From Eledone cirrhosa (taxonomy: Eukaryota): a DNA stretch of 30,919 nt. The notes below the pieces were generated by a model. That model ran no database searches. It was not told the origin of the DNA and was given only the letters and a program-made list of their open reading frames with translations. The translations under genes and the position numbers were made by a program. The stretch covers positions 1-30,919 of the forward strand of contig CAXHJY010001437.1 in assembly GCA_964016885.1 (NCBI GenBank). The letters run 5' to 3'. Below are positions 13,706 to 30,919 of the stretch, piece after piece. The first letter of the stretch is position 1, and every line of letters begins with the position of its first letter.

Positions 13706-13844
13706 AAACAAAGAAAATTTCAATAATACGAAAGATTTCCTGGTGGAAGGTCAGGTGTACTCCGGGTTGGCATCCAGTTTCGGGGTGAAAATCCAATTAG
13801 AAAACCCAACGAATTTTAAGCATTGATATATATATATATATATG

Positions 13845-15635
13845 TAAAAGGTAAACAGAAATAACAACACAAACGGTACAGTGTATGGAAGGAATATATT
13901 AGGTTAACGCTTGATATAGCAGGAAGAGGGTCTAAACGTTTCGGACGTTAGTCCTTCATCAGAAAAAGGAATGAGAAATAAGATAGATTGAGGGAACAGG
14001 TGGGTTGGAATTGGAAAAATGTCTTTAGATAAAAATAATAGGTCCATTCATGTTGACATCTCTTGCAAAACTGTTGGTGCTGGCGTTTTGTGTATGATTT
14101 ATTTTTTAGAAAAGTGGATGATGGGGCGCGTCTATCTGAAATGGAAAAAAAAAACATTTTGTAAAAAGAGCTATACTTGTGCACGTGCGTAAGCGAGCGC
14201 GTGTGTTGTTATACGTCCGTACGAAGCTAAGAAAAAATGTGTGTGTATATGGGAGTAAAAGAGTGTGCATGTAAGTACGAAGCTATGAGCAAAAGTGTGT
14301 TAATATAAGGGTGTGTATGTGTGTATACAGAGCAGTGAAGGGAAAAGTGGAGTGAGCATATATAGTCAGCCTGTATTAGTTGTAAGAGAAGATATTAATG
14401 ATCAAGAGAAAGCGATAAGAATCTAGGGGTGTGATAATGGACGGGGTATTAGAGAAATTGAGGAGGTGAGTTGAGTCCAAGAGGGGAATAGGACCCGAGG
14501 AGGTGAATCAGACTTTGTTCAGTCCTGATGCGCGAGGCCTGTGTTCCATGGTGTAAAAGGACACCCAGGACTGAAACATGTAGGGAAGAATGACCAGGAG
14601 AACAGAAATGACGGGCGACAGGAGTATCCAAACCGAGTCGTATGTCCCACAAATGTTCGACAAAACGGTCCGCCATACGGCGTCCCGTTTGTCCGATGTA
14701 TAAAGACCCACAAAGGGAACACCGGAGGGCATAGACAACGTGGGTGGATGTGCAGGTGAAAGAGTGGCGGATACGGGAAGACCCGTTAGGGCCTGTAAGA
14801 ATGGTGAGGGTGGAAATGAAGAGACAAGTGTTGGAATGGGAACAAGGATGAGAGCCGGGTGGAGTCGTGGGAAAGGACGAGAAGGAACTGCGAACCAGGA
14901 GGTCGCGGAGGTTGCGGGTGCGCTTAAAAGCAGTAATGGGTGGGTTTTGAAAAAAGCGAGAAGTGACGGGGTCAGAAGAGAGGATGCGGAAAGAACGGAG
15001 AATATGTCACCGGAGTGATGGGGTGGTAGGTGAGAAGGAAAGGAACGCGGGTGTTGGGAGGGCGGGGTGAGGTGAGAGGGCTGTGGTGCGGTCTGTTTCA
15101 CGGGCGCGGGTGAGAGAAGCTTAGATCAGGGGGAGGGGGGGATATCCACGCTGGATGAAGCAGAAAGCAATGCGAAGGGAATGGGTTTCGAAATCGTCGT
15201 CCTGGCCACAGAGCCGACGAAGACGGAGGAATTGGGAATAGGGTATGGAGTGTTTGGTGTGGGTTGGATGGGAGGAGGTGAAGTCGAGATAAGATTGGGA
15301 GTCTGTTGGTTTAATGAAGATGGAAGTAGAGAGGGTGTGGTGAGAGTGATTAATAGATAGAGAGATATCTAGAAAAGTGACAGAAGAATCGGAGACGGGC
15401 GCGGTGAAATTGAGAGCAGGATGGAAAGATGGGACAAAAGAAAGAAAGCAATCGACCTGTTCTCGTGATAGAGAGGTGGCGCCGATACAGTCGTCGATAT
15501 AAGGACCGTATAGCTCAGGAGTCGGTCCAGCGTACTGGGAGAAGATCTGGGCTTCGACGTAGCCAACAAACAAGTTGGCATAGTTTGGAGCCTTTCTAGG
15601 TCCCACCGCTACCCCAGAGCCCTGCAGATACCTTT
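13845..15635 (-). mobile_element. 5'-truncated Penelope-like element (Neptune-type): RT C-half, GIY-YIG, 3' UTR/pLTR
   Basis: GVAVG..APNYANLFVG, YIDD, VTFLD, KPTDSQSYL..SSHP..SIPYSQFLRLRRLC. Then NLRDLLVRS and VVYALRCSLCGSLYIGQT..RFVEH..PVARHF..GH..GLN (stop at 14449). Bounded by (TA)n and (CA)n. Confidence 0.93.
13931..13966 (-). ncRNA. Minimal type I hammerhead ribozyme motif in PLE pLTR
   Basis: Minus strand: CUGAUGA-A-GGAC(UAAC)GUCC-GAAA-CG-UU with palindromic helix III AAACGUUU. Helix I is weak in this copy. Confidence 0.8.
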
Positions 15636-15674
15636 CACACACACACACACACACGCACACGCACACGCACACGC

Positions 15675-15716
<42 letters not shown>
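15636..15716. repeat. (CA)n/(CACGCA)n microsatellite
   Basis: Direct reading; abuts the PLE 5' truncation. Confidence 0.95.
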
Positions 15717-15719
<3 letters not shown>

Positions 15720-16112
15720 ATTTAGTGTTAAAGAATAAAAACTAATAACATAAAGTTGTTTTTTTTACTGAGGTCCCGGCGGTGTTGGGGCAGGCAAGGC
15801 TATAGTTTATTTAGCTTATAGGTGTGTCCAGCACAGGAGGTGTTCTTGTATTATGATGGAGTTTTATGTCTTTTATATTTACTGAACTAGATTTTTAAAA
15901 TATCTTCGTATCTCTACTGCAGTGATACATTCAGTCATATATATACTGTAGCTTACCTTTTTATGGTGTTGGGTGAAGTTGTCTGCGCTGTTTTCTTTTC
16001 AAAGAGCTGTATTGGCACATATTGTTTGTTCAGTCACTTCAATATCGTACTTGAAGTTTGCCAGATACTGGATTTTGTTTTAAGTATGTCTACCTACAGA
16101 TTCAGCCTTTAT

Positions 16113-16172: not shown

Positions 16173-16390
16173 ACTTTGTGAGGTTCGATGGGCATAATCC
16201 CTTGTTTCTTTGTAGTTGAAATTTGGTTATTGATGTTTCTTTTATAAGTATCAATACCTTTGTCCTTGCTTGTGTGCGGCAACCATGGTAGGGGCTGAAG
16301 TGTTTGTGACCTTCATATTAGTTTCATTTGTTGTCCTATTTGTACAGATGCTAGTGAGTTTTATTATACTTTCTATAATTTCTAAATGCA

Positions 16391-16449
16391 CATACATACA
16401 TACATACATACATACATACATACATACATACATACATACATACATACAT
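16391..16449. repeat. (CATA)n microsatellite
   Basis: Direct reading; further (CATA)n tracts at 16976-17034 and 17836-17886, the last followed by (CATG)n. Confidence 0.95.
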
Positions 16450-17863
<1,414 letters not shown>

Positions 17864-17914
17864 CATACATACATACATACATACATGCATGCATGCATGC
17901 ATGCATGCATGTAT

Positions 17915-18075
17915 TCGGGAAAAAACTCAAATAGAAAAAAAACAAGAAAGCAGTACAATGATGATAGGTATTAGTGTAACGCTTGATATAGTAGGAAAAG
18001 AGTATTAACGTTTCAGAAGTTAGTCCTTCTAAATAAAATGAAAGATAGAAGACGAAATAGGATAGACGAGAGTAA
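17915..18075 (-). mobile_element. Solo decayed pLTR related to 13845-14000
   Basis: TAACGCTTGATATAG(T/C)AGGAA..AACGTTTC..GTTAGTCCTTC is shared. The HHR core CUGAUGA is destroyed in this copy. Confidence 0.75.
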
Positions 18076-18134
18076 GAAAAGGAAGAAACGGAAATATGTG
18101 TGTGTGTGTGTATATATATATGGAGAGAGAGAAC

Positions 18135-18655
18135 AATTTCGTATTTCTAAAGAAATGTGGTTTTAGGAAGCCGTAGCTATGCAAACACCGGGGCTAACAC
18201 CCTCTGGTGGTGTCCAGCAAAAGCAAGGGCGACAACCGGCTATGCATTTCAGGGTTGACTGGCCTTCGTCAGGACGGTCCATCCCATCGCTTGCTCATAC
18301 AGGACTTGAAAACAGTCGAGAATATATACTTTTCTCGTCTGTGCAAATGAGGTGATTAATCTCATTTGCATATGAAGCTGCATAAGTTGACTCAACTTAT
18401 AATAGAAAAGAAATAAGATTTCGCTTCAAGCATAGCTTCTGCTTCTGCTGGACACCACCAGAGGGCGTTACCCCGGTGTTTTCATAGCTACGGCTTATTA
18501 AAACCGTATTACTTTAGAAATACGAAATTTCTATGCATATTGTATAAAGCTATGCTTGAAGACAAATCTTATTTCTTTTCTATTATAAGTTGAGCCAACT
18601 TATGCAGATTCAGAAGCAAATGAGATTAATCACCTCATTTGCACAGACCAGAAAA
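18135..18655. mobile_element. Non-coding HHR-containing unit with interleaved inverted repeats (A-x-B-A'-s-B')
   Basis: A 18135-18225 is inverted at 18440-18529; B 18330-18438 is inverted at 18547-18655. The HHR lies in x. Confidence 0.85.
18234..18279 (-). ncRNA. Type I hammerhead ribozyme motif
   Basis: Minus strand: GACCGUC-CUGACGA-AGG(CCAGUCAAC)CCU-GAAA-UGCA-UA-GCCGGUU. Helix I has 6 of 7 pairs; palindromic helix III AUGCAU; predicted cleavage after AUA. Confidence 0.85.
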
Positions 18656-18738
18656 CATTTAGAAGACTATACGCTATCAATTTTAAAGTAGTGACTATGT
18701 CGGCGAAAGAAGGGAGAGAAGCTGACAGTCTGTTTCGC

Positions 18739-18748
18739 TATATATACA

Positions 18749-18783
<35 letters not shown>

Positions 18784-18948
18784 ATATATACATATATATA
18801 TATATCTGTATATATACATATATATATATATTTGTATATATACATATATATATATATATGTGTGTATATATATACATATATATATGTATATATACATATA
18901 TATATATACATATATATATGTATATATACATATATATATATACATATA

Positions 18949-18988
<40 letters not shown>

Positions 18989-19526
18989 TCTATATATATA
19001 TATGTGTGTATATATATATATATATGTGTGTATATATATTCATATATATATATATATATATATGTGTGTGTATATATATTCATATATATATATATATATA
19101 TATATGTGTATACATATATATATATATGTGTGTATACATATATATATATGTGTGTATACATATATATATATGTGTGTATATATATACATATATGTATATA
19201 TATGTGTGTGTATATATATATATGTATATATATGTGTGTGTATATATATATATTTGTATATATGTGTGTGTATATATATATGTATATATATGTGTGTGTA
19301 TATATATATGTATATATATGTGTGTGTATATATATATGTATATATATGTGTGTGTATATATATATATATGTGTATATATGTGTGTATATATATATGTATA
19401 TATATGTGTGTGTATATATATATGTATATATATGTGTGTGTATATATATATGTATATATATGTGTGTGTATATATATATGTATATATATGTGTGTGTGTA
19501 TATATATATGTATATATATGTGTGTG

Positions 19527-19557
<31 letters not shown>

Positions 19558-19580
19558 GTGTGTATATATATATATGTATA

Positions 19581-19621
<41 letters not shown>

Positions 19622-19678
19622 GTGTGTATATATATATATGTATATATATGTGTGTATATATATATATATGTATATATA

Positions 19679-19711
<33 letters not shown>

Positions 19712-19946
19712 GTGTATGTATATATATATATATATATATGTGTGTGTATATATATATATATATATGTGTGTGTATATATATATATGTATATATATGTGTG
19801 TGTATATATATATATGTATATATATGTGTGTGTATATATATATATATATATATGTGTGTGTATATATATATATGTATATATATGTGTGTGTATATATATA
19901 TATATGTATATATATGTGTGTGTATATATATATATATGTATATATA

Positions 19947-19989
<43 letters not shown>

Positions 19990-20600
19990 ATATATATATA
20001 TGTATATATATGTGTGTGTGTATATATATATATGTATATATGTGTGTGTGTATATATATATATGTATATATGTGTGTGTATATATATATATGTATATATG
20101 TGTGTGTATATATATATGTATATATGTGTGTGTATATATATATGTATATATCTGTGTATATATATATATATGTATATATGTGTGTGTATATATATATATG
20201 TATATATGTGTGTGTATATATATATATGTATATATGTGTGTGTATATATATATATGTATATATATGTGTGTATATATATATGTGTGTGTATATATATATG
20301 TATATATATGTGTGTATATATATATATGTATATATATGTGTGTATATATATGTGTGTATATATATATATATGTGTATATATGTGTATATATATATATATG
20401 TGTATATATGTGTATATATATATATATGTGTATATATGTGTATATATATATATGTGTGTGTGTGTATATATATATATGTATATATATGTGTGTATATATA
20501 TATATGTGTGTGTGTATATATATATGTATATATATGTGTGTATATATATATATGTGTGTGTGTATATATATATATATATAGATGTATATATATGTGTGTA

Positions 20601-20682
<82 letters not shown>
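18739..20682. repeat. Complex (TA)n/(TG)n microsatellite array
   Basis: Alternating purine-pyrimidine sequence with GTGTGTATATATATATGTATATATAT-like higher-order units. Confidence 0.97.
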
Positions 20683-20686
<4 letters not shown>

Positions 20687-20946
20687 TAAAAGGAATTCCA
20701 ACTTTGTCTGATTTACTCGTTTAATTTACAATCCTTTAAAATTTATAATGGTATTAGAATGAAATAGTATGGTAGAATATTAAAAGTTAAGTGTTAATTG
20801 AACAAGTACTTTCATGCTTTCGTAATCTTCAGTTTCATATTGTGTGGTGACAGTCAAGTTTGCAATTTTCAACTGTAATGAGATGGGTAAATTGTGTGCC
20901 TTATGTACAGTGAAAAGTGGCTCCAGAATGCTAAATCTTGCAAACT
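20681..20946 (-). mobile_element. Inverted pLTR copy of the large PLE
   Basis: Reverse complement of 28419-28698 with scattered substitutions and small indels. Confidence 0.92.
20799..20837 (-). ncRNA. Partly decayed hammerhead motif in the inverted pLTR
   Basis: UGAAA-CUGAAGA-UUAC(GAAA)GCAU-GAAA-GUAC-UU-GUUCA; one extra mismatch each in helices I and II relative to the 28542 copy. Confidence 0.65.
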
Positions 20947-20950
20947 TTAA

Positions 20951-21060
20951 ATTTTAAAGGATTGTAAATAAAACGAGTAAATCAGACAAAGTTGGAATTC
21001 CTTTCATTAATATAATCTTCTATACACAATCATACACACCCGTGTATATTTATCTATCTA
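20951..21060 (+). mobile_element. Direct partial pLTR copy
   Basis: Near-identical (about 3 differences in 110 bp) to 28637-28746. Confidence 0.92.
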
Positions 21061-24764
<3,704 letters not shown>

Positions 24765-25921
24765 TACACAATCCTCTATTTTAAAGGAAATAGAAAAACA
24801 ATTTACAGACGGAAAACTTATAACTGAACATATAAACTCTGAAATTAAGAATTTAGCTGAAATTATACCAACAGTTATCAAAGATACAAGAGAAAGCCTA
24901 CCACAACCCCCTTGGATGTCAGAAATAAACGAAAGAAATTTGGAAAACAAAACACATCGAATAAGAAAAGAAATGTGGAAGACATGGAAAAAGTTCCTTA
25001 ACATAAGAAAACAAAATTTCTGGAGAACCAGAAGAAGAAACAAAACTCAGATGGGAACTTACATTGACAAAATTCAGGACCGACATCTCCATTTCTGAAT
25101 GTAAACAATCCCGCTACAAAGCCAAATATGAACCTATTGATGACCAAATTGAAGTTGAAATTTCAAAGCTAACGACTGGTATTATAGCTGAAAAACTACG
25201 AGAACTATGGATCGGAGATATCTCAAAAGAAGAAAACAAATCAAGAAAGGTATGGCAGCAGAAACAATTTTTTCTCGATGAATATGCTGCAAATTACGGT
25301 AAAGACTCTGGAACCCTGAGAAAAAGCATTAAAAGTGGACAATCTCATCAACACAACATACGCCAGAACACGTGCCAACACAAACACTCACCTTACCTTG
25401 AATCAAAGAAGAACTACGGTAATAACTCTTCGCTTTTTCTACAAAAACACCCTATCGCACACAACATGAACAAAAAGCACAAACACGATAGATATTCCTT
25501 TGACCAGACCATGAGAAGTAGTAAAACCAGGAGATCATTCTCAAGATCTCAACAGAGACTACCAACAAGGAATGTGGAAACAAAACGTAGAATAACCAGA
25601 TCACTCTCAAGATCTCAACAGAGATTGCCCACAAGAAACTGGACGAAAAAACGATCTAAACCTGAAAGCAAACCTAGGTCATTTTCCCAGATTGTTCAAA
25701 ATAATGCTAACAGGAAGAAAAATAATATACAGAATACCAAAAATAGGACAAAATACATAACGAAACCAAATATAATATCACGACCAAAAGTTCATCAAGC
25801 GAACACCAACAGGAATATAAATCCTGAACAGAGAAAAATCCATTTTTTAACGTCAGGACAACAAAAACCGGAAAAAGAAAAACTCCAGGAGGAAACATAC
25901 CCAAAACAGCTGTACACGTAG
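24765..25921 (+). pseudogene. PLE ORF1: helical/charged N-part plus basic Arg/Lys/Ser-rich C-part (5'-truncated, frame break near 25024)
   Basis: Open 24765-25024 in one frame, then [22 protein letters not shown]... from 25025 to TAG at 25921. Internal repeat RS(F/L)SRSQQRLPTRN occurs twice. Confidence 0.7.
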
Positions 25922-28153
25922 ATCCTAAAATAATTAATTTATCTAAAAGAGATCTTGACAATGATGAAATGCAAATTCTGTCAAAAGGACTGAAATTCAC
26001 ACCGACTCCAACAGTCAACCACCAAGAACTGAAGGAGGATACCCAAGAATTCTGTCGAAAATTACGTCTTGTAGAATTCTTCGCTGATAAAAATAATGAG
26101 AGTGATGAATCACTAGTAAAGAATAAATCAAATTTCACTCCGCCAAAAGGAAGAAATATCTATCTCGACCAGTACATTGACATCCTGTCTAAATTTCCTC
26201 TTAGACATAATACTAATGTTAGGCCAAACATTAACAAATCAGAAATGTCTGCACTTAAACGTATACAAAATGATAAAACAATAATAATTAAACAAGCAGA
26301 TAAAGGGGGTGCAGTTGTTATAATGGATACTGAATACTACAAGGATTTGGTTGAGGAACAACTGAAAGACAACATTCTATCATGAAATACCGTCAAATAT
26401 AGACCACAACATCATGAAGAAGATCAACAACCTGGCTTCAAAATACCACAACTCATTTACTGATAAGGAAAGAGACTACATCACCAATTTTGAGCCGAAA
26501 CCCAGCAACCTGTATGGCCTACCGAAAGTTCATAAGTCAAAAGAAATACAACTGGCAGTAAGAGAACAAAACAGTGAGTACATTAAATTATTACACCCAA
26601 AAGACTTAAAACTTAGACCTATTATAGCTGGTCCAACATGCCCCACCCACCGTCTAAGCAATTTTGTTGACATTATTTTGAAACCAATATGTATTCACAT
26701 ACCCAGTTTCATCTGGGATGATATCGACTTCCTGTCCCATCTTCCCAAAACCACGGAAACGAATTCACTTCTACACAGTTTTGATGTGGTAAGCCTTTAC
26801 ACCAACATTACACATGATTTAGGAATAAAGGCGGTTAAATACTGGGTGGAAAAACATAGAGAAGTGATTCCCATTAGATTCACAGCACCATTTATATTAG
26901 ACGCAGTTAAACTTATTCTGGAAAACAACACTTTCTTCTTCAATGGAAAGAATTACATCCAAATTAGAGGCACAGCGATGGGAACGAAGTTTGCTCCCGT
27001 TTACGCGAACTCTGTAATGGGATACTTAGAACAACAACTCTACCAAGAAATAGAGGAAAAATATAGTACTGACTTTAGAAAGTACATTGAAAAATCTTGG
27101 AAGAGATACCTTGACGACTGTTTCATCATCTGGACAGAATCTCTAGATACTCTGGATGAGTTCAATATCCTCCTGAATAACCTACACCCATCTCTCCAAT
27201 TCACAAAAGAGATGAGTAGGACCAAATTACCATTCTTAGATATAATGATAATCAAAAACGACACCACCATTACCACGGATATATATTATAAACACACAGA
27301 CACCCATCAATATCTGAATTTTAAGTCGTGCCATCCACCTCATACAAAACGCAACATCCCATACTGCCTAGCCAGAAGAATTTGTACCATTGTAGAAGAT
27401 ACGAATACCAGGTATAAACGCCTAACAGAACTAAGAGAATTTTTGCTCAAACAAAAACACCCATCTCTACTTATAGAAAATGGCATACAGCGGGCTATAA
27501 AAATACCTATACAACAACTTAGAACAACCCAAGGAAGAAGAAACCAAGAACTGGTCATACCATTTATAATGACACACAACCCATGTCACCAGAATATCTT
27601 CAACACTGCCAAAGCAAACCTACCGATCATTGCTCAAAGTAATGAATTAAAAGGCTTAATCACAGATCGATCTTTGACTCTTAGTAAAATACAGCCAAAA
27701 AATTTGAAGCAATTACTAACAAAAGCAAAGTTTGACCTTAACAACAAAGACCAATCATTCACTGTATCTAAATGCAATGATAGTCGATGCGGCACATGTC
27801 AATCCATACATGCCGGTCAATATATGAAAACAAAAACTGGAAAAATATTCCCAAATGCAAATATGAACTGCAAAAGCAGAAATCTAATTTACTGCATTAA
27901 ATGCCCGAATTGTGAAGAACTATATGTCGGTCAAACTGGAAATGCACTATCGGAACGTGCACGGGTACACCGTCAACAAATCAGAGACCCAAATGTCCGT
28001 CAGATACCCCTAAGCAACCACCAAGCAACATGTGGTCAGGGAATATTTATAATATTCCCATTCTACAAATTACACAGCCCAAGTGAAATCAAGAGAAAAA
28101 TCAAAGAAAAGAATTTTATTGATAAATTCAAACCCAAGCTAAATGAACAATAA
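25828..28153 (+). pseudogene. PLE reverse transcriptase + GIY-YIG endonuclease (one frameshift near 26374)
   Basis: IINLS..LSKGLKFTP, KQADKGGAVV, LYGLPKVHK, RPIIA, SFDVVSLYTNI, GTAMGTKFAP.YAN, RYLDD, LPFLD, CNDSRCGTC linker, NLIYCIKCPNCEELYVGQT..R..H..H..LN. Confidence 0.95.
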
Positions 28154-28366
28154 TAACGCTTAGGGGTATTACTTCTACTACCACTATGACCACGACCACT
28201 AACAACAACAACAACAACAACAACAATAATAATAATAATAAAAGTGATGTTGATGGTGATGATTAATAGAAAATGCTATTTTCATCATTTCTAAAAATAG
28301 CAAAACAATTGATGCTTTGGATATGATTATTGGTCGTTAGCATGCTCAACCAGCTGTGACGCTTAA

Positions 28367-28474
28367 ACCAATCAGCTTTAGTAATTCAGTGAAACTACAC
28401 ACTGATTGGTCGAAATACAGTTTACAGGGCTTAGCATTCTGGAGCCACTTTTCTCTGTATAAAATGTATAAAAG
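28367..28474 (+). promoter_or_regulatory. Candidate pLTR Pol II promoter
   Basis: Inverted pair ACCAATCAG / CTGATTGGT (CCAAT boxes) and TATAAAA twice, about 70 nt upstream of the HHR. AATAAA at ~28653 downstream. Confidence 0.45.
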
Positions 28475-28541
28475 GTAGTAAATTTACCCATCTCATTACA
28501 GTTGAAAATTGTAAACTCGACTGTCACGTCACCACATATTA

Positions 28542-28580
28542 TGAACCTGAAGATTGCGAAAGCATGAAAGTACTTGTTCA
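28542..28580 (+). ncRNA. Minimal type I hammerhead ribozyme in PLE pLTR
   Basis: UGAAC-CUGAAGA-UUGC(GAAA)GCAU-GAAA-GUAC-UU-GUUCA. 5-bp helix I, GNRA-capped helix II, palindromic helix III AAGUACUU. Confidence 0.85.
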
Positions 28581-28746
28581 ATTAACACTTAGAATTTAAT
28601 ATTCTATCATACTATTTCATTATAATACCATTATATATTTTAAAGGATTGTAAATAAAACGAGTAAATCAGACAAAGTTGGAATTCCTCTTATTAATATA
28701 ATCTTCTATACACAATCATACACACCCGTGTATATTTACCTATCTA

Positions 28747-30919
<2,173 letters not shown>

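What the first reader, a model, noticed from the sequence alone, without database searches (positions are those of the whole stretch)
18135..18655. About 320-nt non-coding hammerhead unit with a circularly permuted inverted copy (retrozyme-like)
Seen: the layout is A-x-B-A'-s-B'. On the minus strand, 18438 to 18135 reads B'-x(HHR)-A'. Directly beside it on the plus strand is A'-s-B', the end of the unit joined through a 17-nt spacer to its start. That junction is what a head-to-tail multimer or circular RNA template would give; the monomer would be about 109+104+91+17 = 321 nt. No coding sequence is attached. B holds two strong hairpins (TGCAAATGAG..CTCATTTGCA; ATAAGTTGA-C-TCAACTTAT). Known: metazoan non-LTR retrozymes are short tandem type I HHR repeats that yield circular RNAs and are thought to be mobilised by PLEs, which often leave inverted 5' structures. 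Inference: a non-autonomous retrozyme family inserted with a template switch.
Basis: partly seen in the sequence, partly recalled or inferred. Interest (0 to 1): 0.75.

Follow-up and report, generated by a model that had tools for sequence, protein, structure and literature searches.

The report
Decayed Penelope-style hammerhead repeat copy
This is an aged, truncated copy of an abundant 321-base non-coding repeat that carries a predicted self-cutting RNA motif and lands in TA runs as two back-to-back arms, the pattern of Penelope-type retrotransposons that likely copy it, so it is a new member of a known kind of element.

Summary
Observation confirmed; interpretation partly supported. The layout, 321-nt period and hammerhead (minus strand, AUA site at 18241) are real. 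The unit belongs to a dispersed non-coding family: 730 exact ribozyme cores and 1,167 exact 3'-region 26-mers genome-wide. Of 84 sampled loci, 54 are head-to-head pairs. Their 3' ends fall at two sites about 47 nt apart and usually run into (TA)n, one arm at each site in 35 of 39 pairs. Both arms share subfamily alleles, and copying passes the cleavage site 118 of 121 times. This is the Penelope-like element (PLE) footprint, and a coding PLE family in the window ends the same way. No coding partner, cleavage or RNA was shown. The window copy is probably dead: it has one hammerhead, with mismatches in helices I and II, and its right arm is cut where it abuts a second hammerhead repeat. A circular template is plausible but unproven, because one 11-unit array exists. 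Verdict: a new family of metazoan non-LTR retrozyme (non-autonomous PLE). The scan noted the same kind earlier in other families and genomes.

The parts
18135..18438 (-). Left arm: 0.95 unit, unit positions m1 (18438) to m304 (18135). Its 3' end lies just short of end site E1 and runs into CT/TA/CA microsatellite.
   Evidence: It differs from the per-column majority of family copies at 15 of 240 positions.
18235..18278 (-). Type I hammerhead: helix I strands 18278-18273 and 18240-18235, CUGACGA 18272-18266, helix II 18265-18251, GAAA 18250-18247, palindromic UGCA helix III, predicted cleavage after A18241. It has a U.C mismatch in helix I (18239) and a C.C mismatch in helix II (18254), where most copies pair.
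   Evidence: Covariation across subfamilies. This copy does not fold as a hammerhead (z -0.30), against -2.41 and -4.41 for two other copies.
18312..18342 (-). It is the only one of the three with compensatory changes.
   Evidence: (3 of 10 pairs changed on both sides).
18342..18400 (-). The two hairpins of B (18342-18370 and 18382-18400). They lie at and just 3' of end site E2 in the RNA sense; a role in protein binding is inferred only.
   Evidence: No both-side changes in 18 pairs.
18439..18439 (.). Head-to-head junction of the two arms (m1 against m214, one extra base).
   Evidence: In 54 sampled junctions only one pair of loci coincides within 3 nt.
18440..18655 (+). Right arm: m214-m321 then m1-m109 (0.68 unit). 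It is 3'-truncated and has no hammerhead.
18540..18587 (+). Segment between the family's two 3' end sites, E1 (about m315, 18540) and E2 (about m41, 18587): the ~47-nt PLE-type tail.
   Evidence: End clustering. Window coordinates are converted from unit positions.
18652..18735 (-). Fragment of a second hammerhead repeat family, lacking its usual 3' end. It meets the right arm at a shared 4-nt A/T run, probably a deletion breakpoint.
   Evidence: (1,622 first-look candidates).
18097..18134 (.). Mixed microsatellite at the left end, probably the insertion target. It adjoins a decayed copy of another PLE-type terminal repeat (about 17937-18095, minus strand).

Best explanation
This is an aged, truncated copy of a dispersed 321-nt non-coding repeat family with a predicted type I hammerhead, likely copied into (TA)n sites by the enzyme of an unidentified Penelope-like retrotransposon. 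Shown: the unit repeats head-to-tail with no coding part. Insertions are mostly two back-to-back arms with variable 5' ends and 3' ends at two sites about 47 nt apart, one arm at each site. Both arms carry the same subfamily alleles, and they read across the ribozyme's cleavage site. Inferred mechanism: copies with two hammerheads are transcribed and cut out a monomer, probably as dimeric ribozymes since helix III is only a palindromic UGCA; the monomer would be ligated into a circle. A PLE RT/GIY-YIG dimer nicks both strands of a TA run and starts reverse transcription at E1 on one strand and E2 on the other. The two cDNAs stop at variable points and are joined 5' to 5'. I put a circular template at about 0.5 and an uncleaved multimer at about 0.4. 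The window copy later lost the 3' part of its right arm and gained mismatches in its one ribozyme, so it is probably inactive.
For: Copy number: 3,286 first-look candidates; 730 exact intact cores and 1,167 exact 3'-region 26-mers, with reversed-pattern controls 0. Anatomy (84 distinct loci from the first 100 of the 1,167 hits, all on contig C1; 145 arms): 54 loci head-to-head; 125 of 145 arm ends at E1 or E2; (TA)4 within 40 nt after 89 of those 125, against 11% background; 35 of 39 pairs with two canonical ends are E1/E2 (binomial P 3e-7). A sample chosen on the ribozyme gave 12 of 27 loci head-to-head (counted by eye). Arms of one locus differ by 6.8% (36 pairs) against 9.1% between loci, and at subfamily positions by 29/285 against 7,239/15,257. 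Copying passes the cleavage site in 118 of 121 cases. Ribozyme: in 27 copies of young and older subfamilies the core positions are invariant and 91.7% of cells are paired, with both-side changes in 2 of 6 helix I pairs and 3 of 4 helix II pairs; slid controls give 20-44% (many rows were selected on the core motif). A coding RT + GIY-YIG family in the window has the same two ends about 50 nt apart at (TA)n. Literature: inverted 5'-truncated copy, one-sided 30-40 bp tail and (TA)n bias in PLEs (PMC8557442, passages); nicking of both strands, two internal RT starts bounding the tail and a predicted dimer (PMC11167929, parts 1-3 of 4 read).
Against: No autonomous partner was found: none of 50 GIY-YIG loci has the unit as its terminal repeat, and 78 GIY-YIG ends in 69 of 386 loci gave only separate insertions. 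That is under 1% of 10,596 candidates. Rfam did not recognise the hammerhead. Covariation is between related subfamilies, so it counts few independent events. Shared alleles between arms could reflect one subfamily being active at a time rather than one template. One ~11-unit array exists and could supply linear multimer templates. In the anole PLE, cleavage was not needed for insertion and unprocessed RNA was the main substrate (PMC11167929). No cleavage assay or RNA evidence was obtained here.
Confidence: 0.85

Rival explanations
1. The insertions are stumps (terminal repeats only) of a coding PLE whose 3' end is this unit, not a separate non-autonomous element.
For: The insertion footprint is that of PLEs (PMC8557442). 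The window's own coding PLE leaves such stumps at 20680-21063. Only a small share of GIY-YIG loci was examined.
Against: Arms longer than one unit continue upstream into more of the unit, up to 2.3 units and once about 11, not into an ORF. Six loci with a GIY-YIG fragment nearby involve different PLE families, orientations and junctions. Among 30 loci of an older subfamily there was one weak PLE hit, ending about 1.1 kb from the match.
Confidence: 0.1
2. The enzyme is the same, but the template is an uncleaved linear multimer from one or a few tandem arrays; the hammerhead is a passenger and no circle is involved. This differs from the best explanation only in the template.
For: The array at G000:C2:83.92 Mb holds about 11 units in 3.3 kb and ends at E1. 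Hammerhead mutants do not impair PLE insertion in vitro (PMC11167929). There is no pile-up of 5' ends at the cleavage site, which fits either template.
Against: Only 1 of 56 two-ribozyme loci exceeds 2.3 units. That array is old (units 6-14% apart) and mostly of one allele type, whereas the dispersed copies show two alleles at ten positions. Junctions are not inherited between loci. Helices I and II were kept through compensatory changes.
Confidence: 0.4
3. A local fold-back or DNA rearrangement (MITE-like or palindromic duplication) produced the inverted layout.
For: The right end of the window copy is a later rearrangement, and some loci have three arms.
Against: The arms are circularly permuted with fixed, unequal 3' ends and variable 5' ends across dozens of loci, and 30 of 84 loci were not head-to-head pairs. 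A MITE would have matched terminal inverted repeats.
Confidence: 0.03

Closest known systems
Metazoan non-LTR retrozymes (Cervera and de la Pena 2020, PMC7229834, passages plus sections 14 and 17 read; Li, Clavereau and Pollet, bioRxiv 10.64898/2026.07.22.740005, parts 1-3 of 5 read)
   Same: Non-coding unit of about 320 nt (170-400 nt reported), one type I hammerhead per unit, weak palindromic helix III, GC under 45%, thousands of copies, co-existing PLEs.
   Different: They are described as tandem repeats; here most insertions are two head-to-head arms of 0.1-2.3 units. The parts I read give no insertion-site anatomy for retrozymes, and 'cephalopod' and 'octopus' do not occur in the main text of PMC7229834. 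Circular RNA was shown there and is untested here.
Insertions of endonuclease-bearing Penelope-like elements, including non-autonomous ones such as MRC1 (Craig et al. 2021, PMC8557442, passages)
   Same: 5' truncation, partial tandems, an adjacent inverted 5'-truncated copy, a tail at one end only, (TA)n targets.
   Different: No ORF. The tail is about 47 nt rather than 30-40. No sequence link to a coding family was found.
PAc Poseidon element of the green anole (Frangieh et al. 2024, PMC11167929, parts 1-3 of 4 read)
   Same: Two internal start sites that bound the tail, AT-rich targets, both strands nicked and extended, and read-through of the hammerhead site.
   Different: In vitro no difference in start site between strands was seen. 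Here the two arms use different sites in 35 of 39 pairs.
PLE and canonical metazoan type I hammerheads (Cervera and de la Pena 2014, PMC4209133, passages)
   Same: Helix I of 6 bp, helix II of 4 bp, helix III of 1-2 bp with a palindromic loop, which is expected to act as a dimer.
   Different: AUA triplet and an A-U (often U.U) pair at the base of helix II in the young subfamilies; G-C in the older ones.

Membership tests
Metazoan non-LTR retrozyme | Type I hammerhead core with paired helices in each unit | tested here: met
   Core and helices I-III in family copies, with covariation; 730 exact cores. The window copy has two mismatches; Rfam gave no hit.
Metazoan non-LTR retrozyme | Short (170-400 nt) non-coding unit | tested here: met
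   Period 321 nt; longest ATG frame 58 codons; no PLE ORF joined upstream.
Metazoan non-LTR retrozyme | Head-to-tail tandem copies with at least two hammerheads | tested here: met
   Met for the family: 56 loci genome-wide and one ~11-unit array. Not met by the window copy, which has one.
Metazoan non-LTR retrozyme | Self-cleavage of the RNA | not testable with these tools
   Needs an in vitro assay.
Metazoan non-LTR retrozyme | Expression as linear and circular monomer RNA | tested here: inconclusive
   No RNA holder listed; the three runs laid are contigs of unrecorded kind.
Non-autonomous Penelope-like element | 5'-truncated copies with an adjacent inverted copy | tested here: met
   54 of 84 loci.
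Non-autonomous Penelope-like element | Two 3' end sites with a tail at one end only | tested here: met
   125 of 145 arm ends at E1 or E2; 35 of 39 pairs mixed.
Non-autonomous Penelope-like element | Insertion into microsatellite or AT-rich targets | tested here: met
   (TA)4 after 89 of 125 canonical ends against 11% background.
Non-autonomous Penelope-like element | Sequence similarity to the end of an autonomous PLE | tested here: inconclusive
   None in 50 GIY-YIG loci or at 78 GIY-YIG ends, out of 10,596 candidates.
pLTR of a coding PLE | Unit lies directly 3' of an RT/GIY-YIG ORF in some copies | tested here: not met
   Upstream of long arms is more unit; nearby PLE fragments differ in family and junction. 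The sample is limited.

The most novel reading that the evidence does not exclude
The insertion anatomy is a genomic record of a PLE enzyme dimer copying one ribozyme-made RNA circle from two fixed starts at once, one per target strand. A start module of about 100 nt is shared between repeat families that carry different hammerheads (72% over 104 nt), so this genome holds a set of circular-RNA parasites of one unidentified Penelope enzyme. That makes the long-proposed retrozyme life cycle directly testable.
Probability: 0.4. Interest if true: 0.62.

Novelty: new member of a known kind. Interest (0 to 1): 0.38.

Why it matters
Animal retrozymes are known, and their mobilisation by Penelope-like elements has been proposed from co-occurrence, shared hammerheads and pLTR similarity. 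This family adds evidence from insertion sites: two start points, strict pairing of unequal ends, TA targets and read-through of the cleavage site. It also supplies defined natural substrates for testing whether the template is a circle. I did not find such an analysis of retrozyme insertions in five literature searches, but the library lacks most subscription papers and the bioRxiv supplements could not be seen. The window copy itself is a fossil with no sign of function.

Tried and rejected
Rfam scans of the window (best 150 of 376 rows seen, all microsatellite matches to microRNA models) and of 18125-18735 gave no hammerhead. The repeat finder on the whole window was swamped by TA repeats. 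An exact pattern of the window's own ribozyme variant found only 2 places, showing that this copy departs from the family. No RNA holder was listed; laying three contig runs of unrecorded kind showed presence only and is not used. Search for an autonomous partner: 30 top GIY-YIG loci, 20 long-frame loci, 26 loci around hammerhead variants and 30 older-subfamily loci gave none. The window's coding PLE (26366-28153) has the same end anatomy but no sequence similarity to the unit, so it is not claimed as the partner. A pile-up of 5' ends at the cleavage site, expected for a cleaved linear template, was not seen. The RNAalifold run on region B was weakened by a 41-nt row that I included by mistake; the named-structure count on the same alignment kept that row. 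The PDB sequence search with the PLE protein found nothing. All-against-all flank comparison showed many shared repeats; I saw no common sequence joined to arm 5' ends in the printed flanks. Ten duplicate loci were dropped, and five. An argument that no long array exists was dropped after one was found.

Full report
Observation. The described layout is exact. A (18135-18225) is inverted to A' (18440-18529) at 90% and B (18330-18438) to B' (18547-18655) at 94%. Reading the minus strand from 18438 as unit position m1, the left arm covers m1-m304 and the right arm covers m214-m321 and then m1-m109, with a period of 321 nt. A type I hammerhead lies on the minus strand: CUGACGA from 18272, a 4-bp helix II, GAAA, a palindromic UGCA helix III and an AUA triplet ending at 18241. 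Rfam did not score it. Both named hairpins are present and no long reading frame is attached.

The family. The window is the start of contig C1464 of a 3.0-Gb genome. Earlier scan notes call it a probable octopus; I did not test that. The element has 3,286 first-look candidates, 730 exact intact ribozyme cores and 1,167 exact copies of a 26-mer from the 3' region, with reversed controls 0. Copies differ from the per-column majority by 3.9% on average (110 arms); the window's left arm differs at 15 of 240 positions. Older sister subfamilies at 68-80% identity exist. Across 27 copies, 91.7% of helix cells pair, with both-side changes in helices I and II and slid controls at 20-44%. Many rows were picked on the core motif and the subfamilies are related, so this supports the fold but counts few independent events.

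Insertion anatomy. I mapped 84 distinct loci taken from the first 100 of the 1,167 hits, all on contig C1. Of these, 54 are head-to-head pairs and 30 are single arms or other layouts. Of 145 arms, 125 end at one of two places, E1 (about m315) or E2 (about m41 of the next unit), some 47 nt apart. (TA)4 follows within 40 nt in 89 of those 125, against 11% at random. Among 39 pairs with two canonical ends, 35 have one arm at each site (P 3e-7). The 5' ends are scattered, with 28 of 54 junctions overlapping, and only one pair of loci shares a junction within 3 nt, so each inversion arose at insertion. The two arms of a locus are more alike than arms of different loci (6.8% against 9.1%; 10% against 47% discordance at ten subfamily positions). 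Arms pass the cleavage site in 118 of 121 cases.

Link to Penelope-like elements. An adjacent inverted 5'-truncated copy, a tail at one end only and a (TA)n bias are described for PLEs (PMC8557442, passages). The purified anole PLE protein nicks and extends both strands of AT-rich DNA and starts at two internal RNA sites that bound the tail; hammerhead cleavage was not needed (PMC11167929). The window itself holds a coding PLE (RT and GIY-YIG, 26366-28153) whose family ends at two sites about 50 nt apart in (TA)n and forms head-to-head pairs. It has no sequence similarity to the unit. I found no coding partner among 50 GIY-YIG loci or at 78 GIY-YIG ends in 69 of 386 loci; six family copies near such ends are separate insertions next to different PLE families. 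With 10,596 GIY-YIG candidates, that search is far from complete.

Circle or multimer. Only 5 of 84 loci have an arm with two ribozyme cores. Genome-wide, 56 loci match a two-core pattern; I mapped all 56. In 55 the longest arm is at most 2.3 units, and one is an array of about 11 units in 3.3 kb that ends at E1. Its units are 6-14% apart and mostly of one allele type. Read-through of the cleavage site argues against a cleaved linear monomer as template. A circle explains multi-unit arms in a family almost without arrays, but the one array, or arrays missing from the assembly, could supply linear multimers. No RNA data bear on this.

The window copy. Its single hammerhead has a U.C mismatch in helix I and a C.C mismatch in helix II where most copies pair, and it does not fold as a hammerhead (z -0.30, against -2.41 and -4.41 for two other copies). 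The right arm stops at m109, where it meets a minus-strand fragment of a second hammerhead repeat family (18652-18735) at a shared 4-nt run; both lack their usual 3' ends. A later deletion is the likely cause. Because the left arm ends near E1, the right arm probably once ran on to E2 and had its own ribozyme (inference). This locus could not release a monomer.

Comparison and verdict. The family meets the sequence-level features of metazoan non-LTR retrozymes (PMC7229834; bioRxiv 10.64898/2026.07.22.740005; hammerhead anatomy in PMC4209133) and of non-autonomous PLEs; cleavage and circular RNA are untested. It is a new member of a known kind. The added value is the insertion-site evidence for PLE mobilisation and the paired use of two start sites, which I did not find for retrozymes in five searches. 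An Octopus vulgaris repeat annotation does not use the words ribozyme or retrozyme in its main text (PMC13282606, word search). Earlier notes of this scan reached similar readings on other families and genomes; they are unchecked AI notes and I had formed this reading before seeing them. Interest 0.38.

Noticed in passing
window 25007-28750 (+), with a head-to-head stump at 20680-21063: A coding Penelope-like element (RT and GIY-YIG, with a CxxxxCxxC linker motif seen by eye, in several frames) with a hammerhead at 28547. Its family is young (close copies about 98% alike at the 3' end) and ends at two sites about 50 nt apart in (TA)n.
   Followed up: partly
window 18652-18735 (-); L373-L386, L183, L115, L152: A second non-coding hammerhead repeat family with a GUC site and 1,622 first-look candidates. 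It shares a ~100-nt stretch spanning the end sites with the older subfamily of this element (72% over 104 nt, E 1e-9), although the hammerheads differ.
   Followed up: partly
window 13830-15741 (-) and 17937-18095 (-): A second PLE family: RT and GIY-YIG fragments, and a terminal repeat with a hammerhead at 13962. A decayed copy of that repeat flanks the finding on the left.
   Followed up: partly
G000:C2 about 83,920,630-83,923,935 (L312:1031-4335): The only long array of this family found: about 11 units, some with internal deletions, ending at E1.
   Followed up: yes
G000:C1 143.35-143.80 Mb (L340, L341): Seven family copies spaced about 58-117 kb apart. The two fetched lie in 99.2% identical stretches, which indicates a large recent tandem segmental duplication.
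   Followed up: partly
window 16234-16764 and 17323-17934 (+): Two related frames that look like the C-terminal restriction-like endonuclease region of an R4/Dong-type non-LTR element followed by (TACA)n. This is recalled resemblance only; Pfam gave no hit.
   Followed up: no
one search hits; L236, L241, L245, L262-L281, L342-L371: Older sister subfamilies (68-80% identity) with G-C closed helix II and shorter loop 2. Many young copies carry U.U at the base of helix II. At least eight other hammerhead types appear in the fetched flanks.
   Followed up: partly
window 18740-20690, 21060-24780, 28750-30919: Kilobase-long (TA)/(TG) microsatellite tracts that swamp the repeat and Rfam scans with false microRNA matches.
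   Followed up: no
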